Assembly: GCF_044324875.1 (NCBI RefSeq)
Contig: NZ_CP172185.1
DNA from: Escherichia coli
Lineage (GTDB): Bacteria; Pseudomonadota; Gammaproteobacteria; Enterobacterales; Enterobacteriaceae
Reading direction: 5' to 3' (one strand)
Length of the DNA stretch: 64,000 bases
The notes under the pieces were generated by a model. That model searched no databases, was not told the origin of the DNA, and worked only from the letters and a program-made list of their open reading frames with translations. The translations under genes and the position numbers were made by a program. Below are positions 1 to 64,000 of this stretch, piece after piece; the stretch's first letter is position 1; each line of letters starts with the position of its first letter.

Positions 1-384
1 GGACAAAAGAAACGCGTCTTTCTGGCGAGAGCGATTGCACAGCAGGGTGATGTGATCCTGCTGGATGAACCTTTTACCGGCGTTGATGTGAAAACCGAAG
101 CCAAAATCATCAGCCTGTTGAGGGAGTTACGCGCGGAAGGCAAAACGATGCTTGTCTCAACGCACAATCTCGGATCCGTCACGACATTTTGCGATTATAC
201 GGTCATGGTCAAAGGCACCGTCCTGGCAAGCGGGCCGACAGACACCACTTTTACAGCCGAGAACCTGGAGCTGGCTTTTAGCGGCGTACTACGCCATGTC
301 ACACTTAAAGGCTCGGAAGAAAGCATTATTACTGACGATGAACGCCCCTTTGTGGCTTATCGACCATCAGCGGTGCAGAGGTAA
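1..384 (+). CDS. sitB: SitB, Mn/Fe ABC transporter ATP-binding protein (3' fragment; 5' end lies outside window)
   Basis: In-frame from base 1; translation carries ABC signature/Walker B region ([11 protein letters not shown]...TMLVSTHNL); followed by two permease genes in sitABCD order. Confidence 0.85.
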
Positions 385-389
385 GAAAG

Positions 390-1247
390 ATGAACGTGCT
401 ACTGGAACCCTTCAGCTATGAATATATGCTCAATGCGATGTGGGTCGCGGCGATGGTCGGCGGTCTCTGCGCTTTCCTGTCATGCTATCTGATGCTAAAA
501 GGCTGGTCGCTGATTGGCGATGCGCTGTCGCACTCTATCGTCCCGGGTGTTGCGGGGGCATATATGCTGGGGCTTCCGTTTTCTCTGGGGGCCTTCTTTT
601 CCGGTGGACTGGCTGCGGGCAGCATGCTGTTTCTTAACCAACGCACTCGCTTAAAAGAAGATGCCATCATCGGCCTGATCTTCTCGTCCTTTTTTGGCCT
701 GGGGCTGTTTATGGTGTCATTAAACCCGACATCCGTAAATATTCAGACCATCGTCCTGGGCAATATTCTGGCAATCGCTCCGGCGGATATCCTGCAACTC
801 ACTATCATTGGCATTGTCTCAGTCATAGTGCTCTTTTTCAAATGGAAAGATCTTATGGTGACCTTTTTCGACGAGAATCACGCCCGTGCTATTGGATTAT
901 ATCCAGGAAGATTAAAAATCCTCTTCTTCACACTGCTGGCGGTATCGACCGTTGCAGCATTGCAAACGGTTGGGGCTTTTCTGGTGATCTGTCTGGTAGT
1001 GACCCCTGGCGCAACAGCATGGTTGTTAACCGATCGTTTTCCCCGCCTGCTCGTGATTGCTGTAACTATTGGCAGTGTAACCAGTTTCCTCGGCGCGTGG
1101 GTCAGTTACTTTCTGGACGGAGCGACAGGTGGAATCATCGTGGTGGCGCAGACACTGCTGTTTCTTTTAGCATTTGTCTTTGCACCCACCCATGGGCTTT
1201 TGGCAAATCGTCAGCGTGCGCATAAGGCGCTGGAGGATCGCTCATGA
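390..1247 (+). CDS. sitC: SitC, Mn/Fe ABC transporter permease
   Basis: 285 aa polytopic membrane protein typical of metal ABC permeases; starts 6 bp after sitB stop. Confidence 0.9.
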   Translation: MNVLLEPFSYEYMLNAMWVAAMVGGLCAFLSCYLMLKGWSLIGDALSHSIVPGVAGAYMLGLPFSLGAFFSGGLAAGSMLFLNQRTRLKEDAIIGLIFSSFFGLGLFMVSLNPTSVNIQTIVLGNILAIAPADILQLTIIGIVSVIVLFFKWKDLMVTFFDENHARAIGLYPGRLKILFFTLLAVSTVAALQTVGAFLVICLVVTPGATAWLLTDRFPRLLVIAVTIGSVTSFLGAWVSYFLDGATGGIIVVAQTLLFLLAFVFAPTHGLLANRQRAHKALEDRS

Positions 1248-2122
1248 TGGCATTATTACTGGAGCCACTGCAGTTCACCTTTATGAGTCACGCACTGCTG
1301 ATTTCACTGGTAGTTTCCATACCCTGTGCGCTGCTGTCGGTCTTTCTGGTCCTGAAAGGTTGGGCACTGATGGGAGACGCGATGAGTCATGCGGTTTTTC
1401 CTGGTATCGTGCTTGCGTGGATACTGGGTTTTCCTCTGGCGGGAGGAGCATTCGTCGCCGGAGTATTCTGCGCGGTGGCGACGGGATACCTGAAAGACAA
1501 CAGCCGAATCAAGCAAGATACAGTGATGGGGATTGTTTTTTCTGGCATGTTTGCCGCAGGTCTGATCTTGTATATTGCAGTCAAACCCGACGTACATCTT
1601 GACCATATTCTTTTCGGCGACATGCTCGGGGTAACCATCGGCGATATAATCCAGACGGTGATTATTGCCGGGCTGGTTACACTTGTTATTAGCGTAAAAT
1701 GGCGGGATTTTTTGCTGTTCAGCTTTGATTATCAACAGGCGCAGGTAAGCGGTTTGCATACGAGATGGCTGCATTATGGGCTGCTGTGCATGGTCTCTCT
1801 GACCATTGTGGCGACGCTGAAAGCGGTAGGTATCATTCTCTCCATTTCTCTGCTCATTGCGCCTGGCGCCATTGCGGTACTCCTGACGCAACGCTTTCAT
1901 ATTGCGCTCCTGCTGGCGCTCGGTATATCGGTAATGGTCTCAATGACTGGTGTATGGCTCTCCTTTTTTATAGACAGCGCACCAGCACCAACGATTGTTA
2001 TCTTATTCACGGTTGTATTCATCCTGACGTTTACCGCTTCCAGCATCAATGCTCACGCGAAGGAAAATGTCGATCCACAGGATCTCCCGACTAGTACAAC
2101 AACCAGAGAGCAACATCTGTAG
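1244..2122 (+). CDS. sitD: SitD, Mn/Fe ABC transporter permease
   Basis: 292 aa permease paralogous to the preceding ORF; 4-bp overlap with sitC. Confidence 0.9.
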   Translation: MMALLLEPLQFTFMSHALLISLVVSIPCALLSVFLVLKGWALMGDAMSHAVFPGIVLAWILGFPLAGGAFVAGVFCAVATGYLKDNSRIKQDTVMGIVFSGMFAAGLILYIAVKPDVHLDHILFGDMLGVTIGDIIQTVIIAGLVTLVISVKWRDFLLFSFDYQQAQVSGLHTRWLHYGLLCMVSLTIVATLKAVGIILSISLLIAPGAIAVLLTQRFHIALLLALGISVMVSMTGVWLSFFIDSAPAPTIVILFTVVFILTFTASSINAHAKENVDPQDLPTSTTTREQHL

Positions 2123-56635: not shown

Positions 56636-56716
56636 TATTGTCTCTGATTTCTGTTGTCGTCAACAGGCAGCGTGCTATCATCGAATGGTGTTCTATCCTA
56701 CTCCGTGAGGTTTACC

Positions 56717-56974
56717 ATGCGTACAACCCAACAATTCAGTATTACATTAACTAACGAGATGGCTGACATGGTGCGCTCCCGTGTGGCTTCCGGTGCCTAT
56801 GCTTCAGAAAGCGAGGTCATTCGTGAAGGGCTTCGCGCACTGAATGAGCGCGATAAAGCAATCGAAGCGTGGTTAACGCATTCAGTCGCCCCCTCTCTTG
56901 ATTCTATCCGCGAAAACCCAAACAACGGACGCTCCATTTCACAGGTTCGCGCCGCGATTAGATCCGGGAAGTAG
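56717..56974 (+). CDS. ParD-like type II antitoxin (ribbon-helix-helix)
   Basis: Start at internal Met (MRTTQQFSITLTNEMADMVRSRVASGAYASESEVIREGLRAL); 6 bp before the toxin gene. Confidence 0.7.
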   Translation: MRTTQQFSITLTNEMADMVRSRVASGAYASESEVIREGLRALNERDKAIEAWLTHSVAPSLDSIRENPNNGRSISQVRAAIRSGK

Positions 56975-56979
56975 TCTGC

Positions 56980-57279
56980 ATGACATTTGAAGTCATCATT
57001 ACCCCCGAGGCCGAACAGCAGATAATAAACCTGCACAGATATATAACGGAGAAAGCAGGAGGCGTCATTGCTGACAATTATGCCAATGCGCTTCTTGATT
57101 ATCTTGATGGGTTTTCTGCATTTCCGCATCGGGGCAATAAACGCGATGATATTCGCCAGGGGATGCGGGTAACTCATTTCCGCCACAGAACGATTATTGC
57201 TTTTGCCGTTGATGACAATAAAGTCTTTATCGCAGGTGTTTATCATGGCGGACAAAGTTATGAAACCGATTTCTTATAA
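56980..57279 (+). CDS. ParE/RelE-family toxin
   Basis: 99 aa basic protein immediately downstream of the antitoxin. Confidence 0.7.
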   Translation: MTFEVIITPEAEQQIINLHRYITEKAGGVIADNYANALLDYLDGFSAFPHRGNKRDDIRQGMRVTHFRHRTIIAFAVDDNKVFIAGVYHGGQSYETDFL

Positions 57280-57483: not shown

Positions 57484-59926
<2,443 letters not shown>

Positions 59927-60809: not shown

Positions 60810-61265
60810 TTACTCACAGCCCCCCTGATAATTTCCCTGATAAAACGCCAGCACGCGCTGCATAACTTCGCTCTTCCTGCACTCGCAACAGATTATGTTC
60901 TGACGCCTGTCGTAGCGGCGTATTTCTCCGTCTGGTAATGACCAGATAAGGTCAGGATCAACCACAACCGGTTTTTTCACCTTTTCCCTTGATAGTTTTT
61001 TGCGGGCGTTTTGCCAGTCTTTACGCGCCTGCTCAGACGGGAATAATCCGTAGCCTGAATTGTATACATCACCACTGGCAACCAGCTCTCTGGCAAGAAC
61101 GCTCAGCAGATATCTTGTCGCACCTGTTTTCGCTTCCAGTTGTCGTAACGTCTCGCGCCCGCTCTGTCGCACGAGTTCGACAACCTGCCTCTTAATTTTT
61201 TCCCGCTCTTCCTGTGTAAATACTTTTTTCACAAGTCCTCCTGAAAAATCTCCTTCACAATTCAT
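60810..61265 (-). CDS. Hypothetical nin-region protein
   Basis: 151 aa ORF with 4-bp overlap to the P-like gene. Confidence 0.45.
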   Translation of the reverse strand: MNCEGDFSGGLVKKVFTQEEREKIKRQVVELVRQSGRETLRQLEAKTGATRYLLSVLARELVASGDVYNSGYGLFPSEQARKDWQNARKKLSREKVKKPVVVDPDLIWSLPDGEIRRYDRRQNIICCECRKSEVMQRVLAFYQGNYQGGCE

Positions 61266-61725
61266 ACAAAACCAGCCGCTTTCCGGCGTTCATACTCCTG
61301 TTTCAGCAACTCAATTGGCGTTGGTCCCGACGGGCGTTTGGGGGCCGCCAGTTGTCGCCGGACTGGCGGAACGCTGAGGCCCATACCAACATGCTTTGAC
61401 CATTTCGTCAGTTGCCGTTCTGCAAACCGTTTTAACTCCCCTTCGGTCATCTGGCGTTCAATCCCCTTTGAACGCATCTCGAGGCATATGTGATACAGCA
61501 CAGGCTGAGACCACGGGTATTTATCGCTTCCGTCGTATCGCCAGGACTCATTGCGCCAGCGTCGGTACTCCTCCATCACAGCACCCACCGTCAGACCGAA
61601 TGGATTGGCCCCGCTTTCCGGAATCAGTGCCACAAACTCAGCCAGGTCAGGAGGCCATGTTTCACCCGCCCGGCAGCGGTCCATGCACTGGCGGCAGACC
61701 TGCCGGATTTGCTGCTCAGTCATCG
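61262..61725 (-). CDS. Replication protein P-like (helicase loader); start uncertain, ORF could extend to 61927
   Basis: C-terminal region resembles lambda P (YPWSQPVLYHICLEMRSKG...); start set to the Met overlapping the upstream stop. Confidence 0.55.
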
Positions 61726-62726
61726 CGCCAATCTGTGCAATCCAGAGCTTCGAAGGTGCGGCCCCGTTCTTCCGGGTCCAGCGGTCCGAATAAACCTCCC
61801 CCATGAGTTCCCACAGCTTCCAGGCTGTTTCCGTCGCTGATAAATCCGTTTTCACGTTCCCACTGCTCACGTGCTGCCCGAATTTCCTGAACTGCCCGTG
61901 ATGCGGTGCCACCTGGTGCTGCTGCATGGTTCACCCCCTTGCTGACTGGTTTAACCTGCGCCCTGACGTGATTTACGTGACGGGCGAATTTCTGCTCCCA
62001 CTGAACCTGTGTGAACACTTTCCCCTCCGCCATCCAGTAATCCCGGAAGGCGGCAAGTTCAGCAGGTGTAAATTCCGGTTCCGGCAAAGCCGCTCCCCAC
62101 AACGCAGCCCGCCGTCGAAAATCCAGCGACGGATGCCAGCCATCGGCCATCGGAAATTTCCCGATGGGTTCACTCATGCCGTCCAGATATCCGGGCTCCG
62201 TTGCCTGCGATGGCGTACCGTTCGACTCACTGGTCGGAGCACTCTCGCGCACGCGCGCGTTATGTGTGGGGTTTAATTCTTTATCTGTATCTTTATTAGT
62301 TGCCTTTGTGTTTGCGTCATGTTCAAACACCACACCAATATTTGTTTGAACACCTGTTAAATCTCTCTCTTGTTTTGTTTGAACATCTGCTTCCTTTCTG
62401 CTTCTTCTGGCCTGAACAGATGCTTTTCCGGCGGCTGATTTTTTGGTTAATTTTTCCCTGACTGATGCCAGATCTTCCTCAATCCGAAGATGCACCCATT
62501 CATCGCCGTTATCGTGAAAAAACTCCCGCAAGGATGGCTCCACATCAGCCCATCGCTCATTAGTCAGACGGGCAATTTTTGCCAGCCTGTTTTTAGGTAT
62601 TGGCTTTCCTGTTTGCCAGTAATTGAACATCAGCAACAAATATGCACCGTGCTCCTCTGCTGATAAATGCATGGTGTCAGCCAGGTAATCAGCGATGTAC
62701 AGTTGCATGTATGGTAATGCGGCCAT
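61716..62726 (-). CDS. Replication initiation protein (DUF1376/YdaU-like N-terminal domain, O-analogue)
   Basis: N-terminus YMQLYIADYLADTMHLSAEEHGAYLLLMFNYWQTGKPIP typical of DUF1376. Confidence 0.65.
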   Translation of the reverse strand: MAALPYMQLYIADYLADTMHLSAEEHGAYLLLMFNYWQTGKPIPKNRLAKIARLTNERWADVEPSLREFFHDNGDEWVHLRIEEDLASVREKLTKKSAAGKASVQARRSRKEADVQTKQERDLTGVQTNIGVVFEHDANTKATNKDTDKELNPTHNARVRESAPTSESNGTPSQATEPGYLDGMSEPIGKFPMADGWHPSLDFRRRAALWGAALPEPEFTPAELAAFRDYWMAEGKVFTQVQWEQKFARHVNHVRAQVKPVSKGVNHAAAPGGTASRAVQEIRAAREQWERENGFISDGNSLEAVGTHGGGLFGPLDPEERGRTFEALDCTDWRDD

Positions 62727-62796
62727 AATTGCCTCTTCTGATACCGAATTCCTTAATCACGTACTACCGAAAGCGATCCGGTATAACTATTGCCAG

Positions 62797-63222
62797 TCAG
62801 TGCATCACCACAGCATTACCCGCCGGGCCACCACGATTCATCTGATTGAAACCGGCGATTGCCACTGCGATAAAATCATCAGCGTCTCTCACCAGCCGTT
62901 CTCGTGTCTCCAGCAGCTCCCTGAAATAGGCTGAGCTGTGGCTACGCATTCTGGCCACCAGCAAAGGCGGCATTGCCTTTTCGATCGCTGGTAGTAACGC
63001 CTGAATTTTTACAACCGCATCAGGGGTGTCTTTCTCCACCCAGCGGAAAATTTTCTGGGTATTACGGGCCAGGGCTTCGGGATGGCTGTCGTCATACAGT
63101 TCCGGGAACGTCATACCCAGCTCAAAATAAGCCCGGGTTATTTCAGCTGCCGGAACTTTTTCGCCATCAGGACGCGCCCAGGCATTCATCGCCATGCGGA
63201 TGTGTTCATGCTTGATTTTCAT
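62797..63222 (-). CDS. YdaT-like regulator (CII-analogue of Rac-type prophages)
   Basis: 141 aa beginning MKIKHEHI, downstream of the Cro-like gene. Confidence 0.55.
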   Translation of the reverse strand: MKIKHEHIRMAMNAWARPDGEKVPAAEITRAYFELGMTFPELYDDSHPEALARNTQKIFRWVEKDTPDAVVKIQALLPAIEKAMPPLLVARMRSHSSAYFRELLETRERLVRDADDFIAVAIAGFNQMNRGGPAGNAVVMH

Positions 63223-63487
63223 GAATCAAGCTCCTAGTAAGTGGTTGTGTTAACGTTTTGGTATCTTCCAGCTCGGGCCAAATATTCATCCAATCAAAAG
63301 GCCTTAGTTGCTGACGTGTAACTTCACCATTACTGGCTCGCTCAATAAGGACACATAACGATGCCCCTAACATTTGACCTTTACTCAATGCCTTTCTTAG
63401 ATAACCGATGCTAGTACCACACTCACATGCAAACATACGCTGTTCATCTGACGAAAGAGAATTGAGAAATATTCTTAATTCTTCCAT
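63206..63487 (-). CDS. Cro-like HTH regulator (YdaS-like)
   Basis: 93 aa; C-terminal segment ...CVLIERASNGEVTRQQLRPFDW resembles YdaS. Confidence 0.6.
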   Translation of the reverse strand: MEELRIFLNSLSSDEQRMFACECGTSIGYLRKALSKGQMLGASLCVLIERASNGEVTRQQLRPFDWMNIWPELEDTKTLTQPLTRSLIHENQA

Positions 63488-63588
63488 AGCTACTCCTTAG
63501 TAAACACAGCAAAAGAATACCCATAGGTAAACAAAAGTCAATACCCTTGGGTTGTTTACCTTGCGGTAATCGCATCTATTATTTACCT
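63488..63588. promoter_or_regulatory. Divergent promoter/operator region with three copies of an AGGTAAACA-type site
   Basis: cataggtaaaca, ggttgtttacctt and atttacctatgg between divergent regulator genes. Confidence 0.5.
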
Positions 63589-64000
63589 ATGGACAAATAT
63601 GAATTTAGACGACAACAACTCATCAAAATTCGTGATGAGAAATGCGATGGTAAAGCGGTTAACGTGGCCAGAAAGATCGGTCGCGAGCCTTCTTATGTAT
63701 CAAGAATGTTGTACCCAGAGGGGAAAAAAGGAAAAAAACGGATCGCTGATGATATGGTGGAGATTATAGAAGAGTCCTTTGGGTTACCCCGGGGATGGAT
63801 GGATGGTATCGTTTCATCATCAACGAACACAGCCTCCAATTATGAAACAAGGGTTCTAACGCCACGACAACGTATTTTTTTAGATCTCTTAGACGAACTG
63901 CCTGAAAGTGAAGCGGATAACTTATTAAAAACTCTTGAAGAGAAAAAACAGTATTACAATATGATCTACGAAGAAATCCGTAAAAAGAAAGCACAAAACG
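63589..64000 (+). CDS. Putative prophage repressor (HTH), 5' part; continues beyond window end
   Basis: Open frame from ATG 63589 to window edge, divergent from the Cro-like gene; HTH-like segment AVNVARKIGREPSYVSRML. Confidence 0.5.
   Translation, partial: MDKYEFRRQQLIKIRDEKCDGKAVNVARKIGREPSYVSRMLYPEGKKGKKRIADDMVEIIEESFGLPRGWMDGIVSSSTNTASNYETRVLTPRQRIFLDLLDELPESEADNLLKTLEEKKQYYNMIYEEIRKKKAQN

What the first reader, a model, noticed from the sequence alone, without database searches (positions are those of the whole stretch)
62797..64000. Rac-type immunity region with repeated operator half-sites
Divergent Cro-like (YdaS-like) and repressor genes flank a 100-bp region with three AGGTAAACA/TGTTTACCT motifs (about 63520, 63554, 63582). 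A YdaT-like gene and a DUF1376 O-analogue follow. The replication and immunity module is Rac-like while the structural module is lambda-like, so the prophage is a mosaic.
Basis: partly seen in the sequence, partly recalled or inferred. Interest (0 to 1): 0.4.

Follow-up and report, generated by a model that had tools for sequence, protein, structure and literature searches.

The report
Prophage lysis-lysogeny switch with palindromic operators
This is the on/off switch of an E. coli lambda-like prophage: its layout is a known kind, but its repressor and DNA target sites are uncharacterised and are not those of the Rac prophage.

Summary
Divergent genes flank a 101-bp spacer (63488-63588) that carries AGGTAAACA twice exactly (63525-33 +, 63553-61 -) and once with one mismatch (63580-88 -).

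The 9-mers are the outer arms of 14-bp palindromes, TTACC-N4-GGTAA, at 63517-63530 and 63556-63569. Arms, 39-40 bp spacing and distance to the repressor ATG are conserved next to homologous repressors in nine genera, including phage mEp043. The N4 core varies.

The plus-strand ORF is essentially complete: 139 aa, ending 8 nt past the window. It is not a RacR homologue. Its N-domain is a predicted XRE-type helix-turn-helix, 65-85% identical to the N-domains of S24-peptidase CI repressors. Its C-domain is DicA-like, with no peptidase.

Promoter geometry predicts a leaderless repressor mRNA. The Cro analogue (YdaS family) travels with the repressor N-domain. The YdaT gene is about 90% identical to CP-933P YdaT, and its published site TTGATT-N6-AATCAA occurs once, exactly, at 63212-63229.

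An otherwise 99%-identical prophage carries a different 0.87-kb immunity cassette between window 63234 and 64105.

Verdict: an ordinary lambdoid switch of the CP-933P layout with a new, unstudied immunity specificity. "Rac-type" is only partly right.

The parts
63589..64000 (+). Repressor gene (CI analogue). 137 of its 139 codons lie in the window; the stop is at window 64006-64008. N-domain (about residues 1-75) is a predicted XRE-type HTH, residues 76-87 are a disordered linker, and the C-domain (about 88-139) is a DicA-type helical hairpin. There is no S24 peptidase domain.
   Evidence: WP_000362152, 139 aa. N-domain 70-85% identical to 221-242-aa S24 repressors. Searches (NF007257 DicA, C-terminal part, E 2.5e-5; 33% over 46 aa to DicA, E 1e-7). 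AF2 pLDDT 84.6; best fold matches are phage Rep 5d50 and XRE HTH proteins.
63206..63487 (-). Cro analogue (YdaS-family HTH, 93 aa), first gene of the rightward-type early operon. It has a good Shine-Dalgarno sequence (AGGAG; plus-strand CTCCT at 63493-63497).
   Evidence: PF15943 at 25.9 bits, below the cutoff of 30; phrog_35. PDB 'Cro' 8c7k/8co2, E 1.5e-10; 60-69% identical to the Cro genes beside homologous repressors in six other genera.
62797..63222 (-). YdaT gene (CII functional analogue, 141 aa).
   Evidence: PF06254; phrog_163, CII-like activator. PDB 3c4r E 5.9e-88 and 8bt1 (CP-933P YdaT) E 3.1e-79.
63212..63229 (.). YdaT operator O_M, TTGATTTTCATGAATCAA. It spans the Cro gene's 3' end and the ydaT start. 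A YdaT-activated P_RE-like promoter reading towards the repressor is inferred here.
   Evidence: the only match in 64 kb, with 0 mismatches. The consensus and its position at the ydaS/ydaT junction come from PMC9986795.
63517..63530 (.). Operator O_R-left, ATACCCATAGGTAA.
   Evidence: arms invariant in seven genera, N4 core variable, centre 65.5-68.5 bp upstream of the repressor ATG.
63541..63554 (.). Central weak site, ATACCCTTGGGTTG. The left arm CAATACC is invariant across genera. Its centre is 41.5 bp upstream of the repressor ATG, and it overlaps the Cro promoter -35.
   Evidence: invariant columns CAATACC....G; listed as a 2-mismatch site in L011 and L012.
63556..63569 (.). Operator O_R-right, TTACCTTGCGGTAA, a perfect palindrome. 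Its left arm lies within the -35 hexamer (TTTACC) of the repressor promoter.
   Evidence: centre 26.5-28.5 bp upstream of the ATG in all loci.
63583..63596 (.). It is present only in the E. coli version of the cassette, so its function is uncertain.
   Evidence: absent at this position in L003-L012.
63514..63541 (-). P_R-like promoter for cro-ydaT-replication genes: TTGACT, 16 nt, TATTCT.
   Evidence: 9 of 12 consensus matches. The TTGNNN -35 is conserved in the alignment.
63555..63582 (+). P_RM-like promoter for the repressor: TTTACC, 16 nt, TATTAT. The -10 ends 6 nt before the ATG and there is no Shine-Dalgarno sequence, which predicts a leaderless mRNA.
   Evidence: the same geometry in 7 of 8 loci.
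61716..62726 (-). Replication initiator analogue (DUF1376 plus DnaT domain, 336 aa). The N-terminal 151 aa are 94% identical to Rac YdaU; the C-terminus differs.
61262..61927 (-). Lambda-P-like helicase loader. The ORF is as listed by the ORF finder; RefSeq annotates a 153-aa product that would start at window 61723.
   Evidence: PF06992; phrog_109; annotation of L001.
63234..64000 (.). In-window part of the exchangeable immunity cassette (window 63234 to about 64105). It holds most of cro, O_R, the repressor gene and, just beyond the window, two O_L-like palindromes (window 64053-64066 and 64079-64092).
   Evidence: boundaries against L014; the downstream palindromes; the equivalent pair in phage mEp043.

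Best explanation
The region is the immunity (lysis-lysogeny) switch of a lambdoid E. coli prophage. Its layout is the one worked out experimentally for the cryptic prophage CP-933P (repressor / YdaS / YdaT), but its specificity is different and unstudied.

Proposed mechanism:
1. A 139-aa CI analogue binds as a dimer or higher oligomer to 14-bp palindromes TTACC-N4-GGTAA.
2. Binding at O_R-left (63517-63530) occludes the spacer and -10 of the promoter that drives cro, ydaT and the replication genes.
3. Binding at O_R-right (63556-63569) covers the -35 of the repressor's own promoter and gives negative autoregulation.
4. A weaker central site (63541-63554), centred 41.5 bp upstream of the predicted repressor transcript start, may allow positive autoregulation as OR2 does in lambda.
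5. The repressor mRNA is predicted to be leaderless.
6. The Cro analogue, which is inherited together with the repressor N-domain and these operators, is inferred to bind the same sites and shut off repressor synthesis.
7. YdaT binds TTGATT-N6-AATCAA at 63212-63229 and is inferred to activate an establishment promoter reading into the repressor gene.
8. Two further palindromes about 45-85 bp past the repressor stop, outside the window, are inferred O_L operators. They may double as the repressor gene's terminator.
9. The repressor carries a DicA-type C-domain instead of an S24 peptidase, so it should not be cleaved with RecA. If the prophage is inducible at all, an antirepressor is the likely route.

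Shown here: gene identities, homologies, motif conservation, promoter-like geometry and cassette boundaries. Inferred: all binding, regulation and induction steps.
For: - Gene identities.
- The repressor N-domain is shared with S24 CI repressors, whose C-domains match lambda CI (E 2.8e-31).
- Predicted HTH fold.
- C-domain homologous to DicA and to the alternative repressor in L014. An HMM of this domain finds 172 clusters at E <= 0.001. Most of the 150 listed are 115-185 aa with the domain at the extreme C-terminus. Of 90 of these scanned, 64 have an HTH_3 N-domain and others have YdaS-type or CI-type HTH domains.
- Operators: statistics. Arms, 39-40 bp spacing and distance to the ATG are conserved in E. 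coli, Salmonella, Pantoea, Klebsiella, Serratia, Yersinia, Edwardsiella and Citrobacter, with a variable N4 core, and in the isolated phage mEp043 including an O_L pair.
- Specificity control: the sites are absent from the heteroimmune cassette of L014 and from Rac.
- Promoters were found independently by the scan, and the leaderless geometry is conserved.
- Cro co-varies with the repressor N-domain.
- YdaT is about 90% identical to the solved CP-933P protein and its published site is present exactly once.
- The CP-933P precedent covers a leaderless repressor without a peptidase, divergent P_R/P_RM in a 97-bp spacer, P_L and P_RE (PMC8630535).
Against: - No experiment on this cassette exists. 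Binding, transcript starts and regulation are all inferred.
- The repressor has no Pfam HTH hit and no significant PDB sequence hit.
- Foldseek E-values for the N-domain are marginal (1e-3 at best), although probabilities are near 1.
- The strongest palindrome sits over the repressor's own -35. That argues for repression of P_RM rather than activation, so a lambda-like positive loop is uncertain.
- The central site has 3 mismatches, and its conserved arm also overlaps the Cro promoter -35, which alone could explain its conservation.
- The P_L-like promoter did not reach the scan threshold, and the downstream palindromes also score as an intrinsic terminator.
- No sigma-70 consensus promoter was found near the YdaT site. 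This is expected for an activator-dependent promoter, but it is not positive evidence.
- No antirepressor or convincing LexA box was identified.
Confidence: 0.8

Rival explanations
1. One reading: a Rac-type immunity region in which a RacR-like repressor acts on three 9-bp half-sites.
For: The gene order repressor / ydaS-like / ydaT-like / DUF1376 is as in Rac. The N-terminus of the DUF1376 protein is 94% identical to YdaU. YdaT is 33% and YdaS 39% identical to the Rac proteins.
Against: The repressor is unrelated to RacR. Rac's spacer has different repeats and no TTACC-N4-GGTAA site. YdaT is far closer to the CP-933P type. The helicase loader is lambda-P-like. The third half-site is not conserved in other genera, whereas the full palindromes are.
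Confidence: 0.05
2. The ydaS-ydaT pair is a toxin-antitoxin or toxin module, as the Pfam names 'YdaS_toxin' and 'YdaT_toxin' suggest, with the upstream protein as its dedicated repressor rather than a phage switch.
For: Pfam family names. Two 2017 papers reported toxicity when Rac ydaS/ydaT are derepressed (PMC5700373 and PMC5700377, listed).
Against: The genetic context is a full lambdoid early region. CP-933P YdaS and YdaT were shown to act as Cro and CII analogues, and YdaT is a DNA-binding tetramer with a defined site (PMC8630535, PMC9986795). That site is present here.
Confidence: 0.03
3. The repeated motif is only promoter sequence (TTTACC as a -35-like hexamer) or a chance feature of an AT-rich spacer, not a protein-binding operator.
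For: TTTACC at 63555-63560 is the predicted -35. The third motif is not conserved in other genera.
Against: Both arms of each palindrome are invariant while the 4-bp core varies across seven genera. The left operator lies in a promoter spacer where no promoter constraint is expected. The same palindrome recurs twice downstream of the repressor gene in L001, L015 and mEp043. Chance expectation is low.
Confidence: 0.05
4. The 139-aa protein is a decayed remnant of an S24-type CI repressor in a cryptic prophage and has no function.
For: Its N-domain relatives are mostly 221-242-aa S24 proteins. The prophage carries an IS insertion.
Against: The C-terminal 55 aa form a distinct, confidently modelled helical domain homologous to DicA. 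That domain is conserved in 137-aa homologues from Serratia and Yersinia at 55-57% identity. The 90%-identity cluster holds 543 member sequences. At least 80% of the 1.3-kb query is present in 812 of 5426 complete E. coli genomes.
Confidence: 0.03

Closest known systems
CP-933P immunity region of E. coli O157:H7 (paaR2 / ydaS / ydaT; PMC8630535, PMC9986795)
   Same: Divergent repressor and Cro-analogue genes across a spacer of about 100 bp, with back-to-back promoters. A short repressor without an S24 peptidase and with a leaderless start. YdaT as the CII analogue (about 90% identical to PDB 8bt1), with its TTGATT-N6-AATCAA site at the ydaS/ydaT junction. Additional operators beyond the repressor operon.
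   Different: PaaR2 starts MQKKE, whereas this repressor starts MDKYE. CP-933P operators are 18-bp palindromes with half-site GTTTAGTAA, whereas here they are TTACC-N4-GGTAA. No paaA2-parE2 genes follow the repressor in L001. I could not retrieve the PaaR2 sequence, so no direct alignment was made.
Coliphage mEp043 cI/cro region and related S24-type CI repressors of Salmonella, Pantoea, Klebsiella, Edwardsiella and Citrobacter prophages
   Same: Repressor N-domain 65-85% identical. Cro 60-69% identical in the six related loci (mEp043 Cro itself was not aligned). Same operator palindrome, same 39-40 bp spacing, same distance to the ATG and same promoter geometry. mEp043 also has a pair of O_L sites.
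   Different: Those repressors carry a lambda-CI-like S24 autocleavage domain, whereas this one has a DicA-type helical C-domain. Their CII is lambda-type or another type, whereas here it is YdaT.
Rac prophage racR-ydaS-ydaT-ydaU of E. coli K-12
   Same: Gene order. YdaT family membership (33% identity). Local YdaS similarity. The YdaU N-terminal 151 aa are 94% identical.
   Different: RacR is unrelated. The operators differ. The DUF1376 C-terminus differs, and the next gene is a lambda-P-like loader, where Rac has ydaV (annotated as a putative ATP-binding protein).
DicA/DicC of the Qin prophage
   Same: A short repressor of about 135-139 aa with a homologous C-terminal domain (33% over 46 aa; NF007257 partial hit).
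   Different: The N-terminal HTH domains are not detectably similar. The NF007257 score of 24 is far below the cutoff of 101. DicC is not similar to this Cro (E 0.04).
Non-cleavable repressors inactivated by antirepressors (Gifsy GfoR/GtgR, PMC3121763; SPC32H Rep, PDB 5d50)
   Same: Short repressors lacking the peptidase domain. The best structural match of the model is Rep in the Rep-Ant complex. Lemire et al. place DicA and RacR in the family of Gifsy-repressor (gfoR/gtgR) homologues.
   Different: No antirepressor or LexA-controlled locus was identified here. Sequence similarity to these proteins was not shown.

Membership tests
Rac-type immunity module (racR-ydaS-ydaT-ydaU-ydaV) | Repressor homologous to RacR | tested here: not met
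   BLASTP of the 139-aa protein against K-12 RacR: best E 2.3.
Rac-type immunity module (racR-ydaS-ydaT-ydaU-ydaV) | Rac operator repeats in the divergent spacer | tested here: not met
   The Rac spacer carries ATTAGGC/GCCTAAT repeats. There is no TTACC-N4-GGTAA site near racR-ydaS.
Rac-type immunity module (racR-ydaS-ydaT-ydaU-ydaV) | YdaS, YdaT and YdaU family genes in this order | tested here: met
   YdaS: 39% over 44 aa, E 9e-7, Pfam hit below cutoff. YdaT: 33% identity, PF06254 above cutoff. YdaU: N-terminal 151 aa 94% identical.
Rac-type immunity module (racR-ydaS-ydaT-ydaU-ydaV) | A ydaV-type gene (annotated ATP-binding protein) after ydaU | tested here: not met
   The next gene is lambda-P-like (PF06992, phrog_109). 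No direct comparison with YdaV was run. An annotated ATP-binding protein does follow the same cassette in L015.
CP-933P-type switch (non-cleavable leaderless repressor / YdaS / YdaT) | YdaT orthologue with an O_M site TTGATT-N6-AATCAA at the ydaS/ydaT junction | tested here: met
   8bt1 E 3.1e-79. Exact single site at 63212-63229. Published site from PMC9986795.
CP-933P-type switch (non-cleavable leaderless repressor / YdaS / YdaT) | Leaderless repressor transcript from a P_RM-like promoter | tested here: inconclusive
   The -10 ends 6 nt before the ATG, there is no Shine-Dalgarno sequence, and the geometry is conserved in 7 of 8 loci. No transcript data exist.
CP-933P-type switch (non-cleavable leaderless repressor / YdaS / YdaT) | PaaR2-type repressor and GTTTAGTAA operators, with paaA2-parE2 downstream | tested here: not met
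   Different N-terminus and different operators. No toxin-antitoxin genes follow the repressor in L001.
Lambda CI / LexA-like S24 repressors | C-terminal S24 peptidase (autocleavage) domain | tested here: not met
   No PF00717 hit. The protein ends at residue 139 with a helical hairpin. Relatives sharing the N-domain do have the peptidase.
Lambda CI / LexA-like S24 repressors | N-terminal HTH DNA-binding domain shared with family members | tested here: met
   65-85% identity to the N-domains of S24 repressors. The model has an XRE-like fold.
DicA (NCBIfam NF007257) | Full-length match above the curated cutoff | tested here: not met
   24.1 bits against a cutoff of 101. Only residues 84-136 match.
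XRE-type helix-turn-helix DNA-binding domain | Sequence or structure match to the XRE/Cro-C1 HTH fold | tested here: met
   There is no Pfam HTH hit. The AF2 model (pLDDT about 90 over residues 1-75) matches phage Rep, C-proteins, HigA, SinR and ClgR at probability 0.97-1.0 and rmsd 2.6-3.4 A over about 70 columns; the best E-value is 1e-3.

The most novel reading that the evidence does not exclude
The same DNA-reading core (repressor N-domain, TTACC-N4-GGTAA operators at fixed spacing, partner Cro, leaderless promoter) exists in nature with two alternative C-terminal 'plugs'. One is an S24 autocleavage domain (mEp043 and the Salmonella, Pantoea and Citrobacter prophages). The other, here and in Serratia and Yersinia, is a DicA-type helical domain. 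That helical domain is itself portable: it sits behind many unrelated HTH domains, including the heteroimmune repressor that replaces this cassette in an otherwise identical prophage. If this shared C-domain is the surface that a trans-acting antirepressor recognises, one antirepressor could induce several heteroimmune E. coli prophages together, as reported for the Gifsy phages.
Probability: 0.2. Interest if true: 0.55.

Novelty: new member of a known kind. Interest (0 to 1): 0.3.

Why it matters
At least 80% of the 1.3-kb query that contains this cassette is present in 812 of 5426 complete E. coli genomes. Its repressor is annotated only as 'hypothetical protein'.

Defining the operator (TTACC-N4-GGTAA), the promoters and the cassette boundaries gives a usable annotation. 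It also gives directly testable predictions: footprints, a leaderless start, and no RecA cleavage.

The S24 versus DicA-type C-domain pair on one conserved DNA-binding core is a natural domain-swap series. It could be used to ask how prophage induction mode evolves independently of immunity specificity.

It also corrects the misleading 'Rac-type' and 'toxin' labels.

Tried and rejected
- Pfam, NCBIfam and PDB sequence searches gave no DNA-binding family for the repressor. The HTH assignment rests on homology to CI N-domains and on the predicted fold.
- A word-index search with the C-domain alone returned only fragments and was uninformative. It was replaced by the full HMM search.
- A LexA-box search (CTGT-N8-ACAG) in L001 found one palindrome upstream of parD, with a 23% chance expectation. 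It is not a convincing SOS box, so no induction route was established.
- No sigma-70 consensus promoter was found around the YdaT site.
- The P_L-like promoter TTTACT-17-TATCCT that I read by eye did not pass the scan threshold. The same palindromes score as a terminator, so both readings are kept.
- I could not obtain the PaaR2 sequence, so PaaR2 was compared only through statements in the paper.
- DicC is not a homologue of this Cro.
- The toxin-antitoxin reading of ydaS/ydaT was considered and rejected on context and published work.
Full report
OBSERVATION

The end of the window holds, on the minus strand:
- a 93-aa ORF (63206-63487);
- a 141-aa ORF (62797-63222);
- a 336-aa ORF (61716-62726);
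- a P-like ORF (61262-61927).

On the plus strand an ORF starts at ATG 63589 and runs off the window. The divergent starts are 101 bp apart.

AGGTAAACA occurs exactly twice in the 64 kb, both times in this spacer (63525-33 +, 63553-61 -). A one-mismatch copy, AGGTAAATA, lies at 63580-88 on the minus strand. From the 16 other matches with at most one mismatch in the window, I estimate about 0.025 expected in 101 bp, so three is far beyond chance.

WHERE IT COMES FROM

The 1.3 kb at 62700-64000 is 99.9% identical to prophage DNA in several E. coli chromosomes. At least 80% of it is present in 812 of 5426 complete E. coli genomes.

In the annotated locus L001 the plus-strand ORF is a 139-aa 'hypothetical protein' (WP_000362152) that ends 8 nt beyond the window. 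Further right lie an ECs_2282-family zinc-binding protein gene, Rha, kil, an IS1, an exonuclease gene, xis and int, next to ompW. The repressor is thus essentially complete within the window.

THE GENES

- Cro analogue. Its Pfam hit to YdaS is below the cutoff. It is 39% identical to Rac YdaS over 44 aa and matches PDB 'Cro' entries 8c7k and 8co2 at E 1.5e-10.
- YdaT. It is 33% identical to Rac YdaT. It matches PDB 3c4r at E 5.9e-88 and 8bt1, the CP-933P YdaT, at E 3.1e-79.
- DUF1376 protein. It is itself a chimera: the N-terminal 151 aa are 94% identical to Rac YdaU, and the C-terminus is different and carries a DnaT domain.
- Helicase loader. The DUF1376 gene is followed by a lambda-P-like loader.

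The repressor has no similarity to RacR and no Pfam domain.
- Its first 75 residues or so are 70-85% identical to the N-domains of 221-242-aa LexA/S24-family phage repressors from Salmonella, Pantoea, Klebsiella, Edwardsiella and Citrobacter. They are 65% identical to cI of the isolated coliphage mEp043.
- The C-domains of those relatives match the lambda CI C-terminal domain at E 2.8e-31.
- Residues 84-136 of this repressor instead match the C-terminus of DicA (33% over 46 aa, E 1e-7).
- An AlphaFold model (pLDDT 84.6) shows four helices in the N-domain, a disordered linker (residues 76-87) and a C-terminal helical hairpin.
- Foldseek places the N-domain among XRE-type HTH proteins. The best hit is the Rep repressor of a Salmonella phage in complex with its antirepressor. 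E-values are marginal but probabilities are about 1.

So the protein is a CI-type DNA-binding domain joined to a DicA-type C-domain, with no peptidase.

THE OPERATORS

I read the spacers upstream of the homologous repressors in eight independent loci. Each has two 14-bp palindromes TTACC-N4-GGTAA, centred 26.5-28.5 and 65.5-68.5 bp upstream of the repressor ATG and 39-40 bp apart.

In a seven-genus alignment the invariant columns are exactly the arms (TACCC..GGTA and TTTACC....GGTA), a central CAATACC....G, the TA of a -10 hexamer, and the ATG. The 4-bp cores vary. mEp043 has the same arrangement.

In the window the sites are:
- 63517-63530 (1 mismatch);
- 63556-63569 (perfect);
- a central weak site at 63541-63554 (found by eye; its conserved left arm is confirmed);
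- 63583-63596 over the start codon (2 mismatches).

The third motif is specific to the E. coli cassette. The palindrome is absent from Rac and from the alternative cassette of L014.

PROMOTERS

The consensus scan finds two sites:
- TTGACT-16-TATTCT on the minus strand (63541-63514);
- TTTACC-16-TATTAT on the plus strand (63555-63582).

The left operator fills the spacer and -10 of the first promoter. The right operator covers the -35 and spacer of the second.

The plus-strand -10 ends 6 nt before the ATG and no Shine-Dalgarno sequence is present. The same geometry recurs in 7 of 8 loci. This predicts a leaderless repressor mRNA, as was shown experimentally for paaR2 of CP-933P and for lambda cI (PMC8630535).

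The central site is centred 41.5 bp upstream of the predicted transcript start. From my own knowledge, lambda OR2 lies at about -42 relative to P_RM. That raises the possibility of positive autoregulation, but it is only an inference.

YdaT SITE

The published CP-933P YdaT operator, TTGATT-N6-AATCAA (PMC9986795), occurs once in the window with no mismatch, at 63212-63229. It lies across the end of cro and the start of ydaT, the same position as in CP-933P.

CASSETTE

L014 is 99% identical to the window from 38001 to 63234, apart from insertions in L014 and an IS element in the window. It carries a different Cro, spacer and repressor.

Similarity resumes at window 64105. Inside the swapped 0.87 kb, only the DNA encoding the repressor C-domain is similar (82% over 84 nt). 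L015, an O111 strain, has the same cassette in different flanks.

Just beyond the repressor stop, and still within the cassette, lie TTACCCATGGGTAT and ATACCCATGGGTAT, 26 bp apart. mEp043 has an equivalent pair 25 bp apart downstream of its cI operon. I read these as O_L operators, although they also score as an intrinsic terminator.

C-DOMAIN FAMILY

An HMM of the C-domain finds 172 clusters at E <= 0.001. Most of the 150 listed are 115-185 aa with the domain at the extreme C-terminus. Of 90 of these scanned, 64 have an HTH_3 N-domain, 12 a YdaS-type and 8 a CI-type. It is a portable module behind varied DNA-binding domains.

MECHANISM AND COMPARISON

The best-supported model is a lambda-like bistable switch of the CP-933P layout (PMC8630535), with its own operator specificity shared with the mEp043 group:
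- the repressor blocks the Cro promoter at the left operator and limits its own promoter at the right operator;
- Cro competes at the same sites;
- YdaT drives establishment;
- no S24 domain implies no RecA-stimulated cleavage, and an antirepressor route is plausible by analogy with the Gifsy phages (PMC3121763), but nothing here shows it.

'Rac-type' holds for gene order and for the YdaU N-terminus only. The lambda-like structural module and the overall mosaicism are confirmed.

VERDICT

This is a real, ordinary lambdoid immunity region. It is a new member (a new immunity specificity and domain combination) of a well-known kind. Interest is modest.

Noticed in passing
window 57913-59866: A 1954-bp IS21-family element (istA 57999-59021, istB 59018-59800; IS100-like by my recollection of that element's size). 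It is inserted relative to the otherwise 99%-identical prophage L014, with a 5-bp overlap at the junctions. It interrupts a 171-aa hypothetical gene.
   Followed up: partly
window 56653-57279: A ParD/ParE-type toxin-antitoxin pair lies in the nin-like region (parE at 56980-57279; parD within the ORF at 56654-56974). It is preceded by the palindrome CTGTTGTCGTCAACAG (56653-56668), which fits CTGT-N8-ACAG. This is more likely a ParD operator than a LexA box. CP-933P instead has its parDE-type pair directly behind the repressor.
   Followed up: partly
window 61716-62726: The DUF1376 replication protein is a chimera. Residues 1-151 are 94% identical to Rac YdaU. The rest is unrelated to YdaU and carries a DnaT DNA-binding domain, and a lambda-P-like loader follows. 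The replication module therefore has an internal recombination joint.
   Followed up: partly
L014 30148-30901 (the position corresponding to window 63234-64105): The alternative immunity cassette in an otherwise identical prophage encodes a repressor that is also 139 aa (WP_000233320). It has a different HTH_3-type N-domain but the same DicA-type C-domain. Its spacer and downstream region carry repeated AGTACAT/GTACTT motifs, presumably its own operators.
   Followed up: partly
window 1-2085: The first 2 kb are 95% identical to sitBCD (manganese transporter) genes. The same genes are annotated inside several 'Lambda_*' phage records in the phage collection.
   Followed up: no
window 63562-63574: The scan flags a small terminator-like hairpin, TGCGGTAATCGCA followed by a T-run, inside the divergent spacer. 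It overlaps the right operator and the repressor promoter spacer. It is probably a by-product of the palindromic operator.
   Followed up: no
L009 3648-4622, L010 4308-5126, L001 14340-15182: In the three loci with the short (no S24) repressor, a P63C, Bro-N or Rha-family gene lies downstream on the repressor strand. Such domains are often found in antirepressor-like proteins. The S24-type loci examined lacked such a gene there. The sample is small, so this may be coincidence.
   Followed up: no
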